Both the position numbers and the translations under genes were made by a program. A DNA stretch of 64,000 nucleotides from Vulcanimicrobiota bacterium. GTDB taxonomy: Bacteria > Vulcanimicrobiota > Vulcanimicrobiia > Vulcanimicrobiales > Vulcanimicrobiaceae. Where the stretch lies: assembly GCA_003136355.1 (NCBI GenBank), contig PLED01000082.1, forward strand, positions 6,753 to 70,752, written 5' to 3'. The notes under the pieces were generated by a model that made no database searches, was not told the origin of the DNA, and saw only the letters and a list, made by a program, of their open reading frames with translations. Shown here piece by piece: positions 7,720-59,415 of the stretch; position 1 is the first letter of the stretch; each line of letters begins with the position of its first letter.

Positions 7720-7729
7720 CCTAAATCGG

Positions 7730-7801
7730 TAGCGCCAACGGGAATCGAACCCGTCTTCCCGCCTTGAAAGGGCGATGTCCTAACCGATAGACGATGGCGC
7801 C
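7730..7801 (-). tRNA. tRNA-Glu (UUC)
   Basis: The reverse complement GGCGCCATCGTCTATCGGTTAGGACATCGCCCTTTCAAGGCGGGAAGACGGGTTCGATTCCCGTTGGCGCTA folds as a cloverleaf. Anticodon loop is CTTTCAA and T-loop is TTCGATT. CCA is not encoded. Confidence 0.9.
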
Positions 7802-7832
7802 GTAGTGGCCGTGGATTCGCGGTCTGGGAGCT

Positions 7833-7904
7833 TGGGCCCGGCAGGATTCGAACCTGCGCGCAACCAGTTATGAGCCGGCCGCTCTACCGCTGAGCTACGG
7901 GCCC
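7833..7904 (-). tRNA. tRNA-Met (CAU), elongator type; the tRNA-Ile2 lysidine type cannot be excluded
   Basis: The reverse complement GGGCCCGTAGCTCAGCGGTAGAGCGGCCGGCTCATAACTGGTTGCGCGCAGGTTCGAATCCTGCCGGGCCCA folds as a cloverleaf. Anticodon loop is CTCATAA. A G1-C72 pair argues against an initiator. Confidence 0.85.
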
Positions 7905-54405: not shown

Positions 54406-55242
54406 CTAGTCCTTTCCGTTTCCCATCGGAACAAATTTCAGACGCTGCAGCAGCGTCCTGTCTCGCGTGACAAAGTCGATAAAACCGGCGACCTGCGCGC
54501 TCGGTTGTCCGTTTGTATACATGTGCTCGTAAGACCAATACGGGTAGTTCTTGAGCCCGGCTTGAGCCGCGCCGATGCCGTTAATGGACAGAACTGTCTG
54601 CGAGCCGGGTTGGACGTATGCTAGGCCGAGATATGAAATAGCGCCCGGCGTCTGGGCGACCATGGCGGACACCGTTCCCGAAGAATCTTGCGTCAAGCCG
54701 CTCTCCGAAGGTTCGTGACCGCCCAATATTTTGCTTACCAGCACTGCGCGCGTGCCCGAGCTGCGCGGCCGGTTAATGACGGTGATCGTTCCGGCGTGCC
54801 CGCCGGCTTGGTTCCAGTTCGTAATCTTTCCACTGAAGATATCGCGCAGCTGCGCGGTCGTGAGGTTCTTGACGCCGGTTTGCGGATTGACGACGATGCC
54901 GAAAATCACAATGGCCACCTTGTGATCGACTAAACTGGGTTCGTTCTGCCCGGGAATATCGGAGTCACCGATGTCGACCGCGCGCTGCGCGACCTGCGTA
55001 ATGCCGACGCGCGATCCGCCGCCCGCGACGCTGATCTTGACATTCGGGTGCGCGTTTTGATAATCGACGGCCGCCTGCTTCACCAGAGGCAACAGCGCGG
55101 TCGAGCCGGAGATTGAGATCGAGCCTGGGTTGCCGGCCGTGCCCGACGGGCTGCCGGACTGCGAGGAGCACGCCGCAAGCAGCAGCGCGAGAGCGGCGAT
55201 CAACGTTCTATGCGTCATCGAGCGTTGGTACTTGATCGTCAT
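54406..55242 (-). CDS. pstS: phosphate-binding protein PstS-family lipoprotein
   Basis: An internal ATG gives MTIKYQRSMTHRTLIAALALLLAAC. ISGSTALLPLV .. GGGSRVGI. No pstCAB genes are adjacent. Confidence 0.8.
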   Translation of the reverse strand: MTIKYQRSMTHRTLIAALALLLAACSSQSGSPSGTAGNPGSISISGSTALLPLVKQAAVDYQNAHPNVKISVAGGGSRVGITQVAQRAVDIGDSDIPGQNEPSLVDHKVAIVIFGIVVNPQTGVKNLTTAQLRDIFSGKITNWNQAGGHAGTITVINRPRSSGTRAVLVSKILGGHEPSESGLTQDSSGTVSAMVAQTPGAISYLGLAYVQPGSQTVLSINGIGAAQAGLKNYPYWSYEHMYTNGQPSAQVAGFIDFVTRDRTLLQRLKFVPMGNGKD

Positions 55243-56162
55243 CGCGGGACCTTCATCGTTTGGCGGATGAACTGCATGAGCACCGGATAGACGATATCGA
55301 TTCGCGGAGTTGCATTTTGCGGATCGATGATGTCGTGGTTTGACGGAAGATCGGTAAAGCGGTAGGCCTGCGTGAACTCCCGGCGGTAGCGCTGCCATGC
55401 CAGCCCGACGCTGTCGGCGGCGTGATTATTGACGGCCGGATCGCGCTCGTTGGTAAGGATCGTCGCGCGGCCTCCCGCAAACGGTGTGGCGCGCGAGGCA
55501 TCCCACACATCGTCTCCGATCAGCAAACACTCTCCGAGCGCGTGCGTGGAAAATCGCGGGTATCCGGTCGGCGGCATGATGTTTTCTTTGTTGCGCGGAT
55601 CCCACCAGACGAAAGCGTTGGGCAGTTTGCGCATGGCGGCGCCGGCGAGCCGGCTCACCGGGTACGCGAGTTTCAGCAGCGCGAAGACCGGGCTCACGGC
55701 GATCGCATGCGCGACGTCGGATCGGTGCTGCGCGAAATACGCGCACAGTAATCCGCTCGTCGAAATGCCGAGGACGCAGACGCGTTCGCCCAAGCCGCAC
55801 GCGATGTCGACGGCCTCGGTCGCCGACGAGAGCAACATCTCGGCCGTGAGATTCGCCAGACGCGTCGTCATGCGATCGCGATCGCCTTGCTCGGGAAGCC
55901 GCGGCACGAAGACGTTCGCGCCGAGCTCGCGCACGAGCGGAGCAAATTTCACGTACTGGCCCGGATGATTTGTGATGCCGTGCAGCAGCACGACGGCCAG
56001 CTGTGCGCGGTCGCCGGTGTCGTACAGTTGAGTGTATGCCTCGGGCAGAATGCGCGGATCGCGATCGAGCGCTTTGAACCTATCGGCGCGTTCCTTGGCC
56101 TCCAAATACGATCGCGCCGGCGAGGCAGAAACGGTCAGCGGCATTTGGCATACCTGAAACAT
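55239..56162 (-). CDS. alpha/beta-fold hydrolase (paralog A)
   Basis: VVLLHGITNHP, FVPRLPEQGDRDRM, and the nucleophile elbow GISTSG. Paralog of 56697..57554. Confidence 0.75.
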   Translation of the reverse strand: MFQVCQMPLTVSASPARSYLEAKERADRFKALDRDPRILPEAYTQLYDTGDRAQLAVVLLHGITNHPGQYVKFAPLVRELGANVFVPRLPEQGDRDRMTTRLANLTAEMLLSSATEAVDIACGLGERVCVLGISTSGLLCAYFAQHRSDVAHAIAVSPVFALLKLAYPVSRLAGAAMRKLPNAFVWWDPRNKENIMPPTGYPRFSTHALGECLLIGDDVWDASRATPFAGGRATILTNERDPAVNNHAADSVGLAWQRYRREFTQAYRFTDLPSNHDIIDPQNATPRIDIVYPVLMQFIRQTMKVPR

Positions 56163-56704
56163 GTCGCGACGTGGTCGTTGACCATGCCAACCGCCTGCAT
56201 GAACGAATAGCAGATCGTCGATCCGACGAACGTGAAGCCGCGCTTGCGCAAATCGGCGCTGAGCTCGTCGGATTGCTTACTTGTAGCCGGCAATCGCGAG
56301 CGCGCGGTCCGTCTGGCGCAGAGCGATTTTCCGCCCACAAAGGACCACACATACGCGTCGAAGCTGCCGAACTCGCGCTGCACGCGCAGGAAGGCCTTTG
56401 CATTTTTTACGGCTCCGCGCACTTTCAAGCGGTTGCGGACGATCCCCGGATTCTTCAGAATGCTTTGCACTTTCGCTTCGCTGAATTTCGCCACGCGGCT
56501 CGGGTCGAAGTTTGCGAAGAGCTTTCGGTAGGCATCGCGCTTGGCCAAAATCGTGTTCCAACTCAGGCCGGCCTGCGCGCCCTCGAGCAGTAAAAACTCG
56601 AAGTGGACGCGATCGTCATGCACGGGAACGCCCCATTCGCGATCGTGGTAAGCGATCGAAGCTTCGGTGACGGCCCACGCACAGCGCCTTGGGGAATCAG
56701 CCAT
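56135..56704 (-). CDS. tag: DNA-3-methyladenine glycosylase I
   Basis: RCAWA....Y..YHD.EWGVPVHDD..HFE.L.LEGAQAGLSW.TIL.KR.. Confidence 0.93.
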   Translation of the reverse strand: MADSPRRCAWAVTEASIAYHDREWGVPVHDDRVHFEFLLLEGAQAGLSWNTILAKRDAYRKLFANFDPSRVAKFSEAKVQSILKNPGIVRNRLKVRGAVKNAKAFLRVQREFGSFDAYVWSFVGGKSLCARRTARSRLPATSKQSDELSADLRKRGFTFVGSTICYSFMQAVGMVNDHVATCFRYAKCR

Positions 56705-57554
56705 CTATCAAGTCTACCAGACGCGGCTGCAGGCGCAGCGCGATGTCGGGATAGCGTTTGGGTTCGATCACGTCGTGCGCGAACGGCAAGTCGCGAAAAC
56801 GCTCGACGCGCACGTTCGCGCCGTGGGCCTTCCAAAGATCGGCGAGCTTGACTGCGGCGCGATTGCTGACGGCGGGCTCGCGAACGTTTATCGCCACGAT
56901 CAATTCTTTGGCGGCGGGCGGCCCGGCGCGCGCGGCAGCCATCAGTTCGTAGGCGAGTTTCAGACCTTCCGCGAGCGCGTGCGTTGAGTACCGAGGATAC
57001 CCGTGCGCAGGCAGTTGTTTTTCGCGCAGCCACGGATCCCACCAGAAGAAACGGTTCGGAAAATGGAGCGCCATCCGCGACGCGAGTTCGCCCCAACGCG
57101 TCGGCATCCAGATGAATCCTAAAAACGGGACGATCGCCACGGCTTTGTGCAGCGGTTCGACTTGGCCCGCGCACGCGGTCAGCAAACCGCCCAAAGAAAA
57201 GCCCGCAACGCTCACCTCTTCACCTAAGCCGCGCGCGACTTCGAGCGAGTCGCGCAGGCACGCTTTTAGCTGTTCGGCCGTCATGCCGGCGAGCGCGCGC
57301 GACATGCGATCTTCGCGCCCGTGCTGCGGAAGGCGCGGAACGAATACGTTGTGACCGCGTTCGTGAAGCGCGCGCGCGATGCCGATCATCTGCGGCGGGC
57401 TGGCGCTCAACCCGTGAAATAATACGATCGCGCGCGGGGTGCGGTGGCCGTGATCGAAAACGAGCGAACGCCCGAGCTCGCCGATGCCGGCGCCATCGCG
57501 AGAACGGAAACGCGCGATTCCCTCTTGCGCGCTACGGTACGATGCATCATTCAT
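56697..57554 (-). CDS. alpha/beta-fold hydrolase (paralog B)
   Basis: IVLFHGLSASP, FVPRLPQHGREDRM, and the nucleophile elbow GFSLGG. Confidence 0.75.
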   Translation of the reverse strand: MNDASYRSAQEGIARFRSRDGAGIGELGRSLVFDHGHRTPRAIVLFHGLSASPPQMIGIARALHERGHNVFVPRLPQHGREDRMSRALAGMTAEQLKACLRDSLEVARGLGEEVSVAGFSLGGLLTACAGQVEPLHKAVAIVPFLGFIWMPTRWGELASRMALHFPNRFFWWDPWLREKQLPAHGYPRYSTHALAEGLKLAYELMAAARAGPPAAKELIVAINVREPAVSNRAAVKLADLWKAHGANVRVERFRDLPFAHDVIEPKRYPDIALRLQPRLVDLIDG

Positions 57555-57601: not shown

Positions 57602-58813
57602 ATGCACGACATCGATCGCAACGCTGCGGCTTTCATCGAACTCGAAGACCGCTACGGCGCCCATAATTACCAGCCGCTCGATCTCGTCGTCGAGCGGGCA
57701 GAGGGCGTTTGGCTCTACGACGGTGCCGGAAAACGTTACCTCGATTGCGTGAGCGCATACTCGGCGGTCAACCAAGGGCATTGCCACCCGCGCATCCGCG
57801 CCGCGCTCGAAGAGCAAGCCAAAAAAGTTACATTGACGTCGCGCGCGATGCGCAACGATCGCTTAGGACCGTTTCTCGCGCGCCTGACGGAGTTCTGCGG
57901 ATACGAGTCGGCGCTGCCGATGAACACGGGCGTCGAAGCGGTGGAGACCGCCATCAAACTCGCGCGGCGCTATGCATACGAAATCAAACGCGTCGCGCCC
58001 GACCGCGCCGAAATCATCGTCTTCGCCAATAACTTTCACGGACGCACCACCGCCGCGATCAGCGCGAGCACGACCGAACAATACCGTCACGACTTTGGAC
58101 CGTTCATGCCCGGATTCGTCGCCGTTCCCTACGGCGACTACGATGCGTTGACGGCGGCGATCAACGAACGCACGTGCGCGATCCTCGTCGAACCGATCCA
58201 GGGCGAGGGCGGCGTGATCGTCCCACCGCCGGATTTTTTGAAACGCGCTTGGGGTTTGTGCCGCGAACATCGCGTGCTGTTCATGGCGGACGAAATTCAG
58301 ACCGGGCTCGGGCGCACCGGCGATCTGTTCGCATGCGATCACGACGGAATTAAACCGGACATCATGATCGTGGGAAAAGCTCTGGGCGGCGGATACTATC
58401 CCGTCTCCGCGATGCTTGCAAGCCGCGACCTGATGAAACTCTTCGGCCCGGGCGATCACGGCAGCACGTTCGGCGGTAATCCCTTGGCGTGCGCGGTCGG
58501 ACTGGCTTCGCTCGACGTGATCGAAGGCGAGAATCTCCCCGCTCGTGCGCGATATGCGGGAGCGCGGCTGATGCGCGGATTGCGCGAGCTCGCATCGCCG
58601 GCAACCGAAGAGATTCGCGGACGCGGACTGTTGATTGGACTCCAACTCACCGTGCCGGCGCGGCGCGTAGCCGAACTGCTGATGGAACGCGGCGTCGTCG
58701 CCAAAGACACGCACGAAGACGTGCTGCGCATCGCTCCGCCGCTGGTCATCGAAGACGCCGAGATCGATCTTTTGCTGACGGCGATGGACGGCGCGCTTAA
58801 GGCAGCTCTTTAA
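57602..58813 (+). CDS. rocD: ornithine--oxo-acid aminotransferase
   Basis: 403 aa. YGAHNYQPLDLV.., SAYSAVNQGHCHP, DEIQTGLGRTG, and the PLP-Lys context IMIVGKALGGG. Confidence 0.9.
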   Translation: MHDIDRNAAAFIELEDRYGAHNYQPLDLVVERAEGVWLYDGAGKRYLDCVSAYSAVNQGHCHPRIRAALEEQAKKVTLTSRAMRNDRLGPFLARLTEFCGYESALPMNTGVEAVETAIKLARRYAYEIKRVAPDRAEIIVFANNFHGRTTAAISASTTEQYRHDFGPFMPGFVAVPYGDYDALTAAINERTCAILVEPIQGEGGVIVPPPDFLKRAWGLCREHRVLFMADEIQTGLGRTGDLFACDHDGIKPDIMIVGKALGGGYYPVSAMLASRDLMKLFGPGDHGSTFGGNPLACAVGLASLDVIEGENLPARARYAGARLMRGLRELASPATEEIRGRGLLIGLQLTVPARRVAELLMERGVVAKDTHEDVLRIAPPLVIEDAEIDLLLTAMDGALKAAL

Positions 58814-59363
58814 ACGACTGCTTGAGCCTGAATTCGCTGGCGGGATATTTCGCGCGCAGCATCGCCCATTGGTGCAGGAGCTCGTTGCCTTCCGGATCGC
58901 GCCGGTAGCGCGTGACTCCAAGATAATATTGCGCTTCGGGCGCCGCTAGTGTGGTTGGGAATCGCTTGAGTACCTCGACGTAAGATTCTTCGGCTTTATC
59001 GAATGCGCGCAAGCGCAAGTGCGCCTGTCCGATACTTACGAGCGCGCGCGCCACGAATTCGGCCGGCGGCAAGTACCCTTGCCATTCTTGGAACACGTCG
59101 CCATCGTCATTGAGGATGCGAATGTCGGGCGTCCAGATGTGGTGGTATCGCTTGAGCAGCGATTCATTTTCCGGTTTGGAGTTATCGATCTGAACCGGTA
59201 CGCAACGGTTCACGATCTCGGAGACGAACGTTTCGGGATACGTCACGGTATCCAGCGCTTGGCATCCCCCTCAACCAGGGTTGAACACGTCGAAGAACAC
59301 CAGCTTCGAATCGCGCTTGGCTTCTTTCAGTGCGTCGTCAAAATTGTTGCGCCAAGAAATCAT
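58797..59363 (-). CDS. thioredoxin-fold protein with an in-frame TGA at the CxxC position (candidate selenoprotein, or pseudogene)
   Basis: ATG 59363 gives MISWRNNFDDALKEAKRDSKLVFFDVFNPG, then TGA (59273-59271), then GGCQALDTV, joining the 149-aa track ORF in the same frame. Confidence 0.55.
59236..59253 (-). other. hairpin downstream of the in-frame TGA (SECIS-like candidate)
   Basis: The mRNA reads GGAUAC-CGUGAC-GUAUCC, beginning 18 nt after the UGA, with GU in the apical loop. Confidence 0.3.
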
Positions 59364-59415
59364 GCTTCTCTCTTTCCCCCGCAGGAGCTAGGCTACCCCC
59401 ACGTTCACCCCACGC

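What the first reader, a model, noticed from the sequence alone, without database searches (positions are those of the whole stretch)
58797..59363. In-frame TGA at the first Cys of a thioredoxin-fold CxxC motif: candidate UxxC selenoprotein, or a very recent pseudogene
On the minus strand, an ATG at 59363 follows the purine-rich GGGGGAAAGAGAGAAGC. It opens MISWRNNFDDALKEAKRDSKLVFFDVFNPG. Codon 31 is TGA (59273-59271). The same frame continues GGCQALDTV into the 149-aa ORF of the track, whose first residue is the GTG of that V. The N-terminal pattern (W..F..AL..AK...K.V..DF...WCxxC) is that of thioredoxin-like proteins, and the TGA sits where the first active-site Cys is expected (PG-U-GG-C). 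Starting 18 nt downstream, the mRNA can form GGAUAC-CGUGAC-GUAUCC with GU in the loop. That spacing fits bacterial SECIS elements. UxxC thioredoxin-fold selenoproteins are an established class, but a TGC/TGT-to-TGA point mutation would look identical.
Basis: partly seen in the sequence, partly recalled or inferred. Interest (0 to 1): 0.72.

Follow-up and report, generated by a model that had tools for sequence, protein, structure and literature searches.

The report
Misannotated thioredoxin-TPR selenoprotein gene
The in-frame TGA is almost certainly a real selenocysteine codon in a thioredoxin-like redox protein that databases annotate as a truncated "TPR protein"; the mechanism is ordinary, but the family appears uncatalogued and it points to selenium use in the soil phylum Eremiobacterota.

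Summary
The pseudogene reading is refuted and the selenoprotein reading is strongly supported.

- The same in-frame TGA occurs in 81/81 orthologues (one per species of Eremiobacterota, plus a few Acidobacteriota), in 9/9 distant relatives tested and in 95 metagenome sequences.
- Protein-level conservation runs on both sides of the TGA.
- Full-length relatives mostly carry Cys at that column, in a CxxC motif.
- The 35 nt after the UGA are frozen even at synonymous sites.
It shows compensatory change: A-U 66, G-C 24, G·U 1, mismatch 0.
- TGA is an ordinary stop elsewhere in the window.

The protein (188 aa, U31-G-G-C34) has a DsbDγ/DsbH-type thioredoxin domain and a YbgF-like TPR domain. A close Cys homologue models at pLDDT 95.7. 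Its architecture resembles CnoX/YbbN.

No NCBIfam model and no entry in a 2026 catalogue of 119 families matches this Trx-TPR family.

Not shown: selA, selB, selD or tRNA-Sec in the same genome, and the protein's function. Verdict: a new family within the known UxxC thioredoxin-fold selenoproteins.

The parts
58797..59363 (-). Complete selenoprotein coding sequence: 188 codons plus a TAA stop. Sec is at codon 31.
   Evidence: Translation. The same joined frame is present in 81/81 orthologous loci.
59364..59380 (-). Purine-rich stretch GGGGGAAAGAGAGAAGC directly upstream of the ATG. Possible ribosome-binding region.
   Evidence: Read directly from the sequence. Function is inferred and was not tested.
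59271..59273 (-). UGA codon 31, the proposed selenocysteine and first residue of the U-G-G-C redox motif.
   Evidence: TGA in 81/81 loci. Cys at this column in most full-length homologues.
59262..59264 (-). TGC codon for Cys34, the resolving Cys of UxxC.
   Evidence: Cys in 81/81 sequences (TGC 79, TGT 2). Conserved in most Cys-form homologues.
59236..59253 (-). SECIS core hairpin: 5' arm GGAUAC 59253-59248, loop CGUGAC 59247-59242, 3' arm GUAUCC 59241-59236. The loop starts 23 nt after the UGA.
   Evidence: 100% of cells paired, with A-U<->G-C and A-U<->G.U variation. Covariation in 91 metagenome sequences: A-U 66, G-C 24, G.U 1, A.C 0. Geometry checked.
59236..59270 (-). 35-nt stretch after the UGA that is nearly invariant at the nucleotide level, synonymous sites included.
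   Evidence: Synonymous-codon entropy is near 0 for codons 32-42, against 0.5-2 bits elsewhere. Alignment.
59244..59246 (-). Invariant GUG (Val40) inside the SECIS loop. Gene callers take it as a false start, which produces the truncated 149-aa ORF.
   Evidence: ORF list. All 120 best database homologues are about 150 aa and cover 79% of the query.
59049..59360 (-). Thioredoxin-like domain (aa 2-105) of DsbD-gamma / DsbH type.
   Evidence: Pfam Thioredoxin_2, Thioredoxin_7 and DsbH. PDB profile hits 2kuc, 2lst and DsbD C-terminal domain. AF2 model of a homologue plus Foldseek.
59127..59135 (-). W77-T78-P79, the conserved loop at the position of the thioredoxin-fold cis-proline.
   Evidence: W, T and P are invariant in alignment A1. 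P79 is invariant across the wide family. That the proline is cis is inferred.
58800..59051 (-). C-terminal helical TPR-like domain (aa 105-188) of YbgF/CpoB/BamD type.
   Evidence: Pfam TPR_1, TPR_2 and TPR_16 below cutoff. PDB profile hits 2xev and 6g5s. Helices spanning residues 105-193 in the AF2 model.

Best explanation
This is an intact gene for a 188-residue selenoprotein.

Proposed mechanism: translation starts at the ATG at 59363. At UGA-31, a SelB-type elongation factor carrying Sec-tRNA(Sec) is recruited by the hairpin GGAUAC-CGUGAC-GUAUCC in the coding sequence, whose apical loop lies 23 nt downstream. Selenocysteine is inserted instead of terminating.

The product has a U31-G-G-C34 redox centre at the N-terminus of the first helix of a DsbD-gamma/DsbH-type thioredoxin fold, opposite a conserved W-T-P loop. 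A YbgF-like TPR helical domain follows. It most likely acts as a thiol/selenol-disulfide oxidoreductase that cycles through a selenenylsulfide, with the TPR domain serving as a docking surface for partners or clients. That is the domain logic of the chaperedoxin CnoX/YbbN. The window protein shows no N-terminal signal peptide by eye, so it is probably cytoplasmic.

Shown here: the conserved UGA, coding conservation on both sides, the Cys/Sec pair, RNA-level constraint and covariation of the hairpin, the fold, and that TGA is otherwise a stop in this genome.

Inferred: that the decoded residue is Sec through SelA/SelB/SelD, the redox chemistry, the role of the TPR domain, and the localisation.
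For: - TGA at the same column in 81/81 loci from species-representative genomes, in 9/9 distant relatives whose DNA was fetched and in 95 metagenome family members.
- The N-terminal 30 codons are conserved as protein with free synonymous change, e.g. D25 GAC 52 / GAT 29.
- All 120 best database homologues are cut at the same point. Of the 150 best 50%-cluster representatives, 82 are N-truncated and 18 full-length; 13 of the 18 read CxxC at the UGA column.
- Codons 38-42 use a single codon in 81/81 sequences (65/65 for Thr39), and codons 30 and 32-37 are nearly as fixed.
- The hairpin meets the bSECIS criteria from PMC13188914 on stem, loop, loop G and spacing: 6-bp stem, 6-nt loop, G at loop position 2 followed by U, 23 nt from the UGA.
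- Covariation: AU 9 / GC 4 and AU 8 / GU 5, with 100% of cells paired and 1/500 shuffles as good. In 91 distinct metagenome sequences: A-U 66, G-C 24, G.U 1, A.C 0, Fisher p = 4e-21.
- Divergent members form different hairpins at the same place, with loops GCGA, AGGU and GGAC.
- 23 of 54 well-supported long ORFs in the window end in TGA.
- AF2 model of the closest full-length Cys homologue (P0125, 43% identity to the joined sequence): pLDDT 95.7. Its CGGC lies between a strand and the N-terminus of a helix.
- Foldseek top hits are DsbH, DsbD-gamma and, over both domains, YbbN.
Against: - No selA, selB, selD or tRNA-Sec in the window or in 1.18 Mb of family loci. This is uninformative, but it leaves the machinery unverified.
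- No paper in the searchable library links Eremiobacterota to selenocysteine.
- The isolated hairpin in the window has dG of -6.0 to -6.8 kcal/mol, short of the -7.5 of the consensus model.
- The region does not fold better than shuffles.
- No Rfam family matches.
- The covariation statistics are not corrected for phylogeny, and the scan pattern fixed most of the 3' arm.
- There is no conserved gene neighbourhood to support any specific function.
Confidence: 0.88

Rival explanations
1. The UGA is recoded without the Sec machinery. The conserved hairpin would stimulate read-through by a near-cognate tRNA (Trp, Cys or Arg), giving a WxxC, CxxC or RxxC protein in genomes that lack selA/selB.
For: The Sec machinery could not be shown in these genomes. 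No literature reports Sec use in this phylum. The review notes that aerobic bacteria rarely keep selenoproteins.
Against: The UGA sits exactly at the catalytic Cys of a CxxC motif in homologues, which is the signature of Sec. The hairpin has the geometry and loop G of bacterial SECIS elements. A Cys codon would be simpler than maintaining read-through, yet the UGA is kept in more than 180 diverse sequences.
Confidence: 0.06
2. The gene is split. UGA terminates a 30-aa peptide, and a separate 149-aa protein starts at the GTG at 59246, as the databases annotate it.
For: Every gene caller produces this model. GTG or ATG is always available a few codons after the UGA.
Against: - The two parts are always in the same frame at a fixed distance, in 81/81 loci plus the distant clades.
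- The split would cut a thioredoxin fold between its first beta-alpha-beta unit and the active-site helix, and would separate U/C from the resolving Cys.
- Full-length Cys homologues are single polypeptides.
- The GTG is invariant because it lies in the hairpin loop.
- By eye there is no Shine-Dalgarno-like sequence in front of it.
Confidence: 0.03
3. A very recent pseudogene: a TGC/TGT-to-TGA point mutation, or a sequencing error, in this genome only.
For: A single window cannot distinguish this.
Against: TGA at this column in 81/81 independent species-level genomes and in more than 100 metagenome contigs, with purifying selection on both sides.
Confidence: 0.005
4. TGA is reassigned genome-wide, as in genetic code 4 or 25.
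For: One homologue (P0161) was called with Trp at this codon.
Against: 23 of 54 well-supported long ORFs in the window end in TGA, including the three nearest genes. P0161's DNA simply has TGA and was called under an alternative code.
Confidence: 0.005

Closest known systems
[quoted passage not shown]
   Same: A thioredoxin fold of the DsbD C-terminal-domain type. Sec replaces the first Cys of CxxC. A bacterial SECIS lies in the coding sequence just after the UGA. Cys-containing homologues are widespread.
   Different: This family has a fused C-terminal YbgF-like TPR domain, a characteristic (D/G)(T/A)VTYP segment encoded by the SECIS, and in the window no signal peptide seen by eye.
VPGUxxT family thioredoxin-like (seleno)proteins (NCBIfam NF041382 / NF041383)
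   Same: A thioredoxin-like N-terminal region with a similar lead-in (xPG-U). Weak HMM similarity over about 60-90 residues.
   Different: Scores of 15-40 bits against cutoffs of 275-350. The motif is UxxC rather than UxxT. Lengths and C-terminal regions differ (287-349 aa against 188 aa).
CnoX / YbbN chaperedoxin (PDB 3qou, 3qdn)
   Same: The only solved proteins that align over both domains (about 200 columns): an N-terminal thioredoxin domain followed by a TPR domain. CnoX is cytoplasmic (my own knowledge), and this protein shows no signal peptide by eye.
   Different: 12-13% identity, TM-score 0.42 and rmsd 11 A, so the domain orientation differs and no sequence-family relationship is shown. 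CnoX is about 285 aa. E. coli CnoX lacks a CxxC motif and no Sec form is known to me (my own knowledge). Chaperone activity was not tested here.
DsbD C-terminal domain, DsbH, and the rhodanese/DsbD-fusion selenoprotein TsoB (NF045694)
   Same: The best sequence and structure matches for the N-terminal domain.
   Different: Those are periplasmic or membrane-linked modules of larger proteins. Scores are 28-55 bits against cutoffs of 330-805. There is no transmembrane or rhodanese part here.

Membership tests
Bacterial SelB/SECIS-dependent selenoprotein gene | An in-frame UGA inside a conserved ORF, retained among orthologues | tested here: met
   TGA in 81/81 loci, in 9/9 distant members and in 95 metagenome members. 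Coding conservation on both sides.
Bacterial SelB/SECIS-dependent selenoprotein gene | Cys-containing homologues with Cys aligned to the UGA (Cys/Sec pair) | tested here: met
   Of 18 full-length representatives, 13 read CxxC at the column and one is itself TGA.
Bacterial SelB/SECIS-dependent selenoprotein gene | bSECIS geometry: 3-9 nt apical loop, 4-16 bp upper stem, G in the first two loop positions, 16-37 nt from the UGA to the loop (PMC13188914, Fig 2) | tested here: met
   6-bp stem, 6-nt loop CGUGAC with G at position 2 followed by U, spacing 23 nt. Spacing is 20-24 nt in all clades examined.
Bacterial SelB/SECIS-dependent selenoprotein gene | bSECIS stability: MFE of -7.5 kcal/mol or lower | tested here: inconclusive
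   The isolated window hairpin is -6.0, or -6.8 in context. Relatives with G-C or extended stems are -8.0 to -12.2. The local MFE of -12 belongs to an alternative stem that variation does not support.
Bacterial SelB/SECIS-dependent selenoprotein gene | Evolutionary support for the RNA structure (covariation, synonymous-site constraint) | tested here: met
   Synonymous entropy near 0 over codons 32-42. 100% of cells paired with one compensatory pair, 1/500 shuffles as good. A-U 66, G-C 24, G.U 1, A.C 0.
Bacterial SelB/SECIS-dependent selenoprotein gene | selA, selB, selD and tRNA-Sec present in the same genome | not testable with these tools
   None in the 64-kb window or in 1.18 Mb of family loci. 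Whole genomes could not be fetched.
Bacterial SelB/SECIS-dependent selenoprotein gene | Selenium shown in the protein (75Se labelling or mass spectrometry) | not testable with these tools
   Requires an experiment.
Thioredoxin-fold thiol:disulfide oxidoreductase (DsbD-gamma / DsbH type) | Thioredoxin fold with the CxxC/UxxC motif at the N-terminus of the first active-site helix | tested here: met
   AF2 model of the closest full-length Cys homologue P0125 (43% identity to the joined sequence): pLDDT 95.7, with C35-G-G-C38 between strand 25-31 and helix 36-45. Foldseek hits to DsbH and DsbD-gamma with probability 1.00. The window protein itself could not be submitted, because the tool refuses an edited sequence.
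Thioredoxin-fold thiol:disulfide oxidoreductase (DsbD-gamma / DsbH type) | A conserved proline loop opposite the active site (cis-Pro) | tested here: met
   W77-T78-P79 are invariant in A1, and P79 is invariant across the wide family. The cis conformation is inferred.
Thioredoxin-fold thiol:disulfide oxidoreductase (DsbD-gamma / DsbH type) | Pfam gathering score reached | tested here: inconclusive
   Thioredoxin_2 scores 27.6 against 27.0 (just met). Thioredoxin_7 scores 26.1 and DsbH 25.7 against 27 (just missed).
VPGUxxT family thioredoxin-like (seleno)protein (NF041382 / NF041383) | NCBIfam score at or above the curated cutoff, and the VPGUxxT motif | tested here: not met
   27-31 bits against 275-350 for the window protein, and 15-40 bits for 9 other members. 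The motif here is NPG-U-GG-C.
TsoB / DsbD | Full-length architecture and curated score | tested here: not met
   Only the C-terminal thioredoxin domain matches, at 28-55 bits against 330-805.
CnoX / YbbN chaperedoxin | Thioredoxin domain followed by a TPR domain | tested here: met
   Foldseek aligns 200-207 columns to 3qou and 3qdn. This is a resemblance in architecture only.
CnoX / YbbN chaperedoxin | Sequence-family relationship and matching domain arrangement | tested here: not met
   12-13% identity, TM-score 0.42, rmsd 11 A. Not among the 60 best PDB profile hits.
Published 'Thiol:disulfide interchange protein' selenoprotein (PF13098, UxxC) | Homology to the representative WP_011366075.1 over its full length | not tested
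   The sequence was not obtainable, and the 2004 paper is not held. Only the descriptor (PF13098/cd02953, UxxC) matches.

The most novel reading that the evidence does not exclude
This is a widespread soil and sediment selenoprotein family (a thioredoxin-TPR protein whose UxxC motif is followed by a SECIS-encoded (D/G)(T/A)VTYP segment) that curated selenoprotein catalogues and NCBI annotation models have missed. It would also be the first evidence that Eremiobacterota use selenocysteine. I recall members of that phylum being described as aerobic or microaerophilic, but I did not check this. Because all 80 loci recovered from species-representative genomes (almost all Eremiobacterota) carry the Sec form and none a Cys form, it may be one of the proteins that keeps the Sec machinery in the phylum.
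Probability: 0.45. Interest if true: 0.6.

Novelty: new member of a known kind. Interest (0 to 1): 0.5.

Why it matters
Practical: hundreds of database entries named "tetratricopeptide repeat protein", "TolA-binding protein" or "hypothetical protein" of about 150 aa are truncated calls of a 188-aa redox enzyme. They lose the catalytic residue and the first third of the thioredoxin fold. A family model with a Sec exception would correct them.

Biological: it places selenocysteine use in Eremiobacterota, for which the searchable literature records none. The 2026 review states that aerobic bacteria rarely keep selenoproteins, and I recall members of this phylum being described as aerobic or microaerophilic (not checked here).

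It is also a clean example of dual coding. The SECIS hairpin freezes the peptide (D/G)(T/A)VTYP, and the Asp-to-Gly change in one arm is matched by a synonymous Tyr UAU-to-UAC change in the other. That gives a ready-made system for testing SECIS requirements outside E. coli.

The mechanism itself is standard, so this is not a conceptual surprise.

Tried and rejected
- **Alternative RNA structure.** ViennaRNA's MFE fold pairs GGGAUGC with GUAUCCC (-12 kcal/mol). Rejected: its A9-U36 pair is broken in 10/13 sequences and 308/500 shuffles do as well.
- **Single-sequence thermodynamics.** Not better than shuffles, so not used as evidence.
- **Rfam.** No SECIS or other family at gathering score or at E up to 10.
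- **Sec machinery.** tblastn with E. coli SelA/SelB/SelD plus aragorn for tRNA-Sec on the window and 213 loci (1.18 Mb) found nothing.
- **Gene neighbourhood as a functional clue.** No neighbour family is shared by more than 10 of 81 loci or 11 of 210 loci.
- **Other selenoprotein genes in the window.** A scan for TGA-interrupted ORFs gave 34 candidates. Only this one has a UxxC/CxxU context and a fitting hairpin.
- **Submitting the joined protein (U to C).** Worked around with the profile of truncated calls (A1) and, for the structure, with the closest full-length Cys homologue P0125.
- **First structure model without an alignment.** Poor (pLDDT 58) and discarded.
- **Metagenome scan with an alignment of distant members.** Failed because no stretch was conserved enough. 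Replaced by a DNA pattern scan.
- **Literature.** No paper links Eremiobacterota, WPS-2 or Vulcanimicrobiota to selenocysteine, and none describes a thioredoxin-TPR selenoprotein. Kryukov & Gladyshev 2004 and Haft & Tolstoy 2025 are not held.
- **Genetic-code reassignment and pseudogene.** Both rejected.
Full report
**Observation**

On the minus strand, the ATG at 59363 follows GGGGGAAAGAGAGAAGC and opens MISWRNNFDDALKEAKRDSKLVFFDVFNPG. Codon 31 is TGA (59273-59271). The same frame continues GGCQALDTV... to a TAA at 58799-58797. The mechanically listed 149-aa ORF (58797-59246) begins at the GTG of Val40. The hairpin GGAUAC/CGUGAC/GUAUCC occupies 59253-59236 and starts at the 18th nt after the UGA.

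**Not a pseudogene**

A search with the joined protein (U written as C) returned 448 homologues. All of the best 120, at 59-97% identity, are about 150 aa long and cover only 79% of the query, so all are cut at the same point.

I fetched 80 loci from species-representative genomes. Almost all are Eremiobacterota/Vulcanimicrobiota (Rubrimentiphilum, Baltobacteraceae, Cybelea, Aquilonibacter), and three are labelled Acidoferrum or Acidiferrales. In every one the frame upstream of the called start runs through an in-frame stop, nine codons before that start. The context is F(L/F)D(V/I)FNPG-*-GGCQALD(T/A)VTYP, and about 30 residues before it are conserved. The stop is TGA in 81/81 sequences.

Upstream residues are conserved as amino acids while their codons vary: D25 is GAC 52 / GAT 29, F27 is TTC 71 / TTT 10, N28 is AAC 70 / AAT 11. 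So the N-terminal piece is translated, in this frame, under purifying selection.

TGA is an ordinary stop in this genome. It ends 23 of 54 well-supported long ORFs in the window, including the three nearest genes. The recoding is therefore site-specific.

**Cys/Sec pair**

A profile search of 1.84 billion cluster representatives found 1788 relatives with E up to 1e-3. Among the best 150, 82 are N-truncated at this column and 18 are full-length. Of those 18, 13 read CxxC at the TGA column (CGGC, CSGC, CVGC, CTGC, CNGC and others). One of them, P0161, reads 'NPGWGGC', but its DNA has TGA and it had been called under another genetic code.

DNA was obtained for nine distant truncated members (25-40% identity). 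All have TGA there, with UTGC, UPAC, UAAC, UIGC, UGGC or USGC motifs.

**SECIS**

Within the 81 sequences, synonymous-codon entropy collapses for codon 30 and codons 32-42. GAT, GTG, ACG and TAT are each used in 81/81 sequences and ACC in 65/65. Equally conserved residues elsewhere keep 0.5-2 bits.

Measured against the consensus bacterial SECIS model quoted in a 2026 review (PMC13188914), the hairpin has:
- a 6-bp stem;
- a 6-nt loop with G at position 2 followed by U;
- 23 nt between the UGA and the loop;
- an isolated stability of -6.0 to -6.8 kcal/mol, slightly short of the -7.5 criterion.

ViennaRNA prefers a different long-range stem, but variation contradicts it. One of its pairs is broken in 10/13 sequences, and 308/500 shuffles do as well.

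Only 1/500 shuffles do as well, and slid registers pair in 23-56% of cells.

The compensatory change is neat. Asp GAU pairs with Tyr UAU, and Gly GGU pairs with Tyr UAC, so a synonymous change tracks a non-synonymous one.

A metagenome scan fixed the TGA, the second Cys codon, the loop and most of the 3' arm. Of these, 95 are family members and 91 are distinct. The pair is A-U in 66, G-C in 24, G·U in 1 and A·C in 0 (Fisher p = 4e-21, not corrected for phylogeny).

More divergent members form other hairpins at the same position, 20-24 nt from the UGA: GGAUGCG-GCGA-CGUAUCC, GAUGCGUG-AGGU-CACGUAUC and AGAGCU-GGAC-AGCUCU. One member, L092, has only a weak candidate hairpin. Rfam has no matching family.

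**The protein**

Pfam gives borderline Thioredoxin_2, Thioredoxin_7 and DsbH matches for residues 2-105, and TPR matches for residues 105-154.

A family profile against PDB sequences finds 2kuc, 2lst and the DsbD C-terminal domain (E from 1e-16 to 1e-13) for the N-terminal half, and YbgF/CpoB and BamD TPRs for the C-terminal half.

AlphaFold2 on the closest full-length Cys homologue (P0125, 43% identity to the joined sequence), run with a 53-sequence alignment, gives pLDDT 95.7 and pTM 0.91. The CGGC motif lies between strand 25-31 and the N-terminus of helix 36-45. Helices span residues 105-193.

Foldseek's top hits are DsbH (2ju5), DsbD-gamma and a Thioredox_DsbH protein. The only targets aligned over both domains are E. 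coli and Salmonella YbbN/CnoX, which also combine thioredoxin and TPR domains, but at 12-13% identity and rmsd 11 Å.

W77-T78-P79 is invariant and sits where thioredoxin folds carry the cis-proline. The window protein shows no signal peptide by eye. One other clade appears to have one.

**Function**

The most likely function is a selenol/thiol-disulfide oxidoreductase cycling through a U31-C34 selenenylsulfide, with the TPR domain binding partners. This is inference from the fold. No gene neighbour is conserved across 81 or 210 loci, so genomic context gives no help.

**What is missing**

selA, selB, selD and tRNA-Sec were not found in the window or in 1.18 Mb of family loci. This is uninformative, because whole genomes could not be searched. 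It leaves a small probability of SelB-independent recoding.

**Comparison with what is known**

UxxC thioredoxin-fold selenoproteins, including a DsbD-gamma-type 'thiol:disulfide interchange protein', have been known since 2004-2008 (PMC13188914 Table 1; PMC2398784). The kind is therefore known.

This thioredoxin-TPR family, however:
- does not appear among the 119 families in the 2026 catalogue;
- reaches no NCBIfam cutoff, for the window protein or for nine diverse members (best 28-55 bits, to TsoB/DsbD domains with cutoffs of 330-805, and 15-40 bits to the VPGUxxT models);
- is annotated by sources, NCBI included, as a truncated 'tetratricopeptide repeat protein';
- is not described in the searchable literature, which also has nothing on Sec use in Eremiobacterota.

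I could not compare it with the published representative WP_011366075.1.

**Verdict**

This is a genuine selenoprotein gene that works by the standard mechanism. It is a new, or at least uncurated, family within a known class. It has practical value for annotation and moderate biological interest.

Noticed in passing
window 59268-59285 (minus strand): In the Eremiobacterota-type sequences the Gly codon before the UGA is GGT in 76/77, in a 62% GC genome. UUCAAC-CCUG-GUUGAG could form a small hairpin that contains the UGA itself. Codons 32-37, which lie 5' of the SECIS stem, also show little synonymous change. None of this is conserved in distant clades. It may be a local context effect on UGA decoding.
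   Followed up: partly
L083:207-209 (protein P0161): A database protein with 'NPGWGGC' has TGA in its DNA. The contig was gene-called under an alternative genetic code, so the Sec codon is recorded as Trp.
   Followed up: yes
window 59244-59246 (minus strand); all homologue loci: The invariant GUG in the SECIS loop, or an ATG three codons upstream of that position in other clades, gives gene callers a start codon. This explains the uniform ~150-aa truncated annotations ('TPR repeat protein', 'TolA-binding protein').
   Followed up: yes
L111 (family member with UTGC motif): This clade seems to carry an N-terminal signal peptide (MLRCILSFLVALAAIFLAKPVIA...), unlike the window protein. Localisation may differ between clades of the family.
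   Followed up: no
window 58797-58813: The 3' ends of the selenoprotein gene (minus strand) and the convergent 403-aa aminotransferase-like ORF 57602-58813 (plus strand) overlap by 17 nt.
   Followed up: no
window 55239-57554 (minus strand): Two ORFs that look like paralogous alpha/beta-hydrolases (55239-56162 and 56697-57554) share the motif HG...FVPRLP..G.(E/R)DRM. They flank an ORF that looks like 3-methyladenine glycosylase I (56135-56704). Judged by eye only.
   Followed up: no
L090:1234-1839: In one distant clade, an AhpC/Redoxin-family gene lies directly upstream of the selenoprotein gene. No such link is seen in other clades.
   Followed up: partly
window 7728-7904 (minus strand): Adjacent tRNA-Glu(UUC) and tRNA-Met(CAU) genes are the only tRNAs in the window. 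There is no tRNA-Sec.
   Followed up: yes
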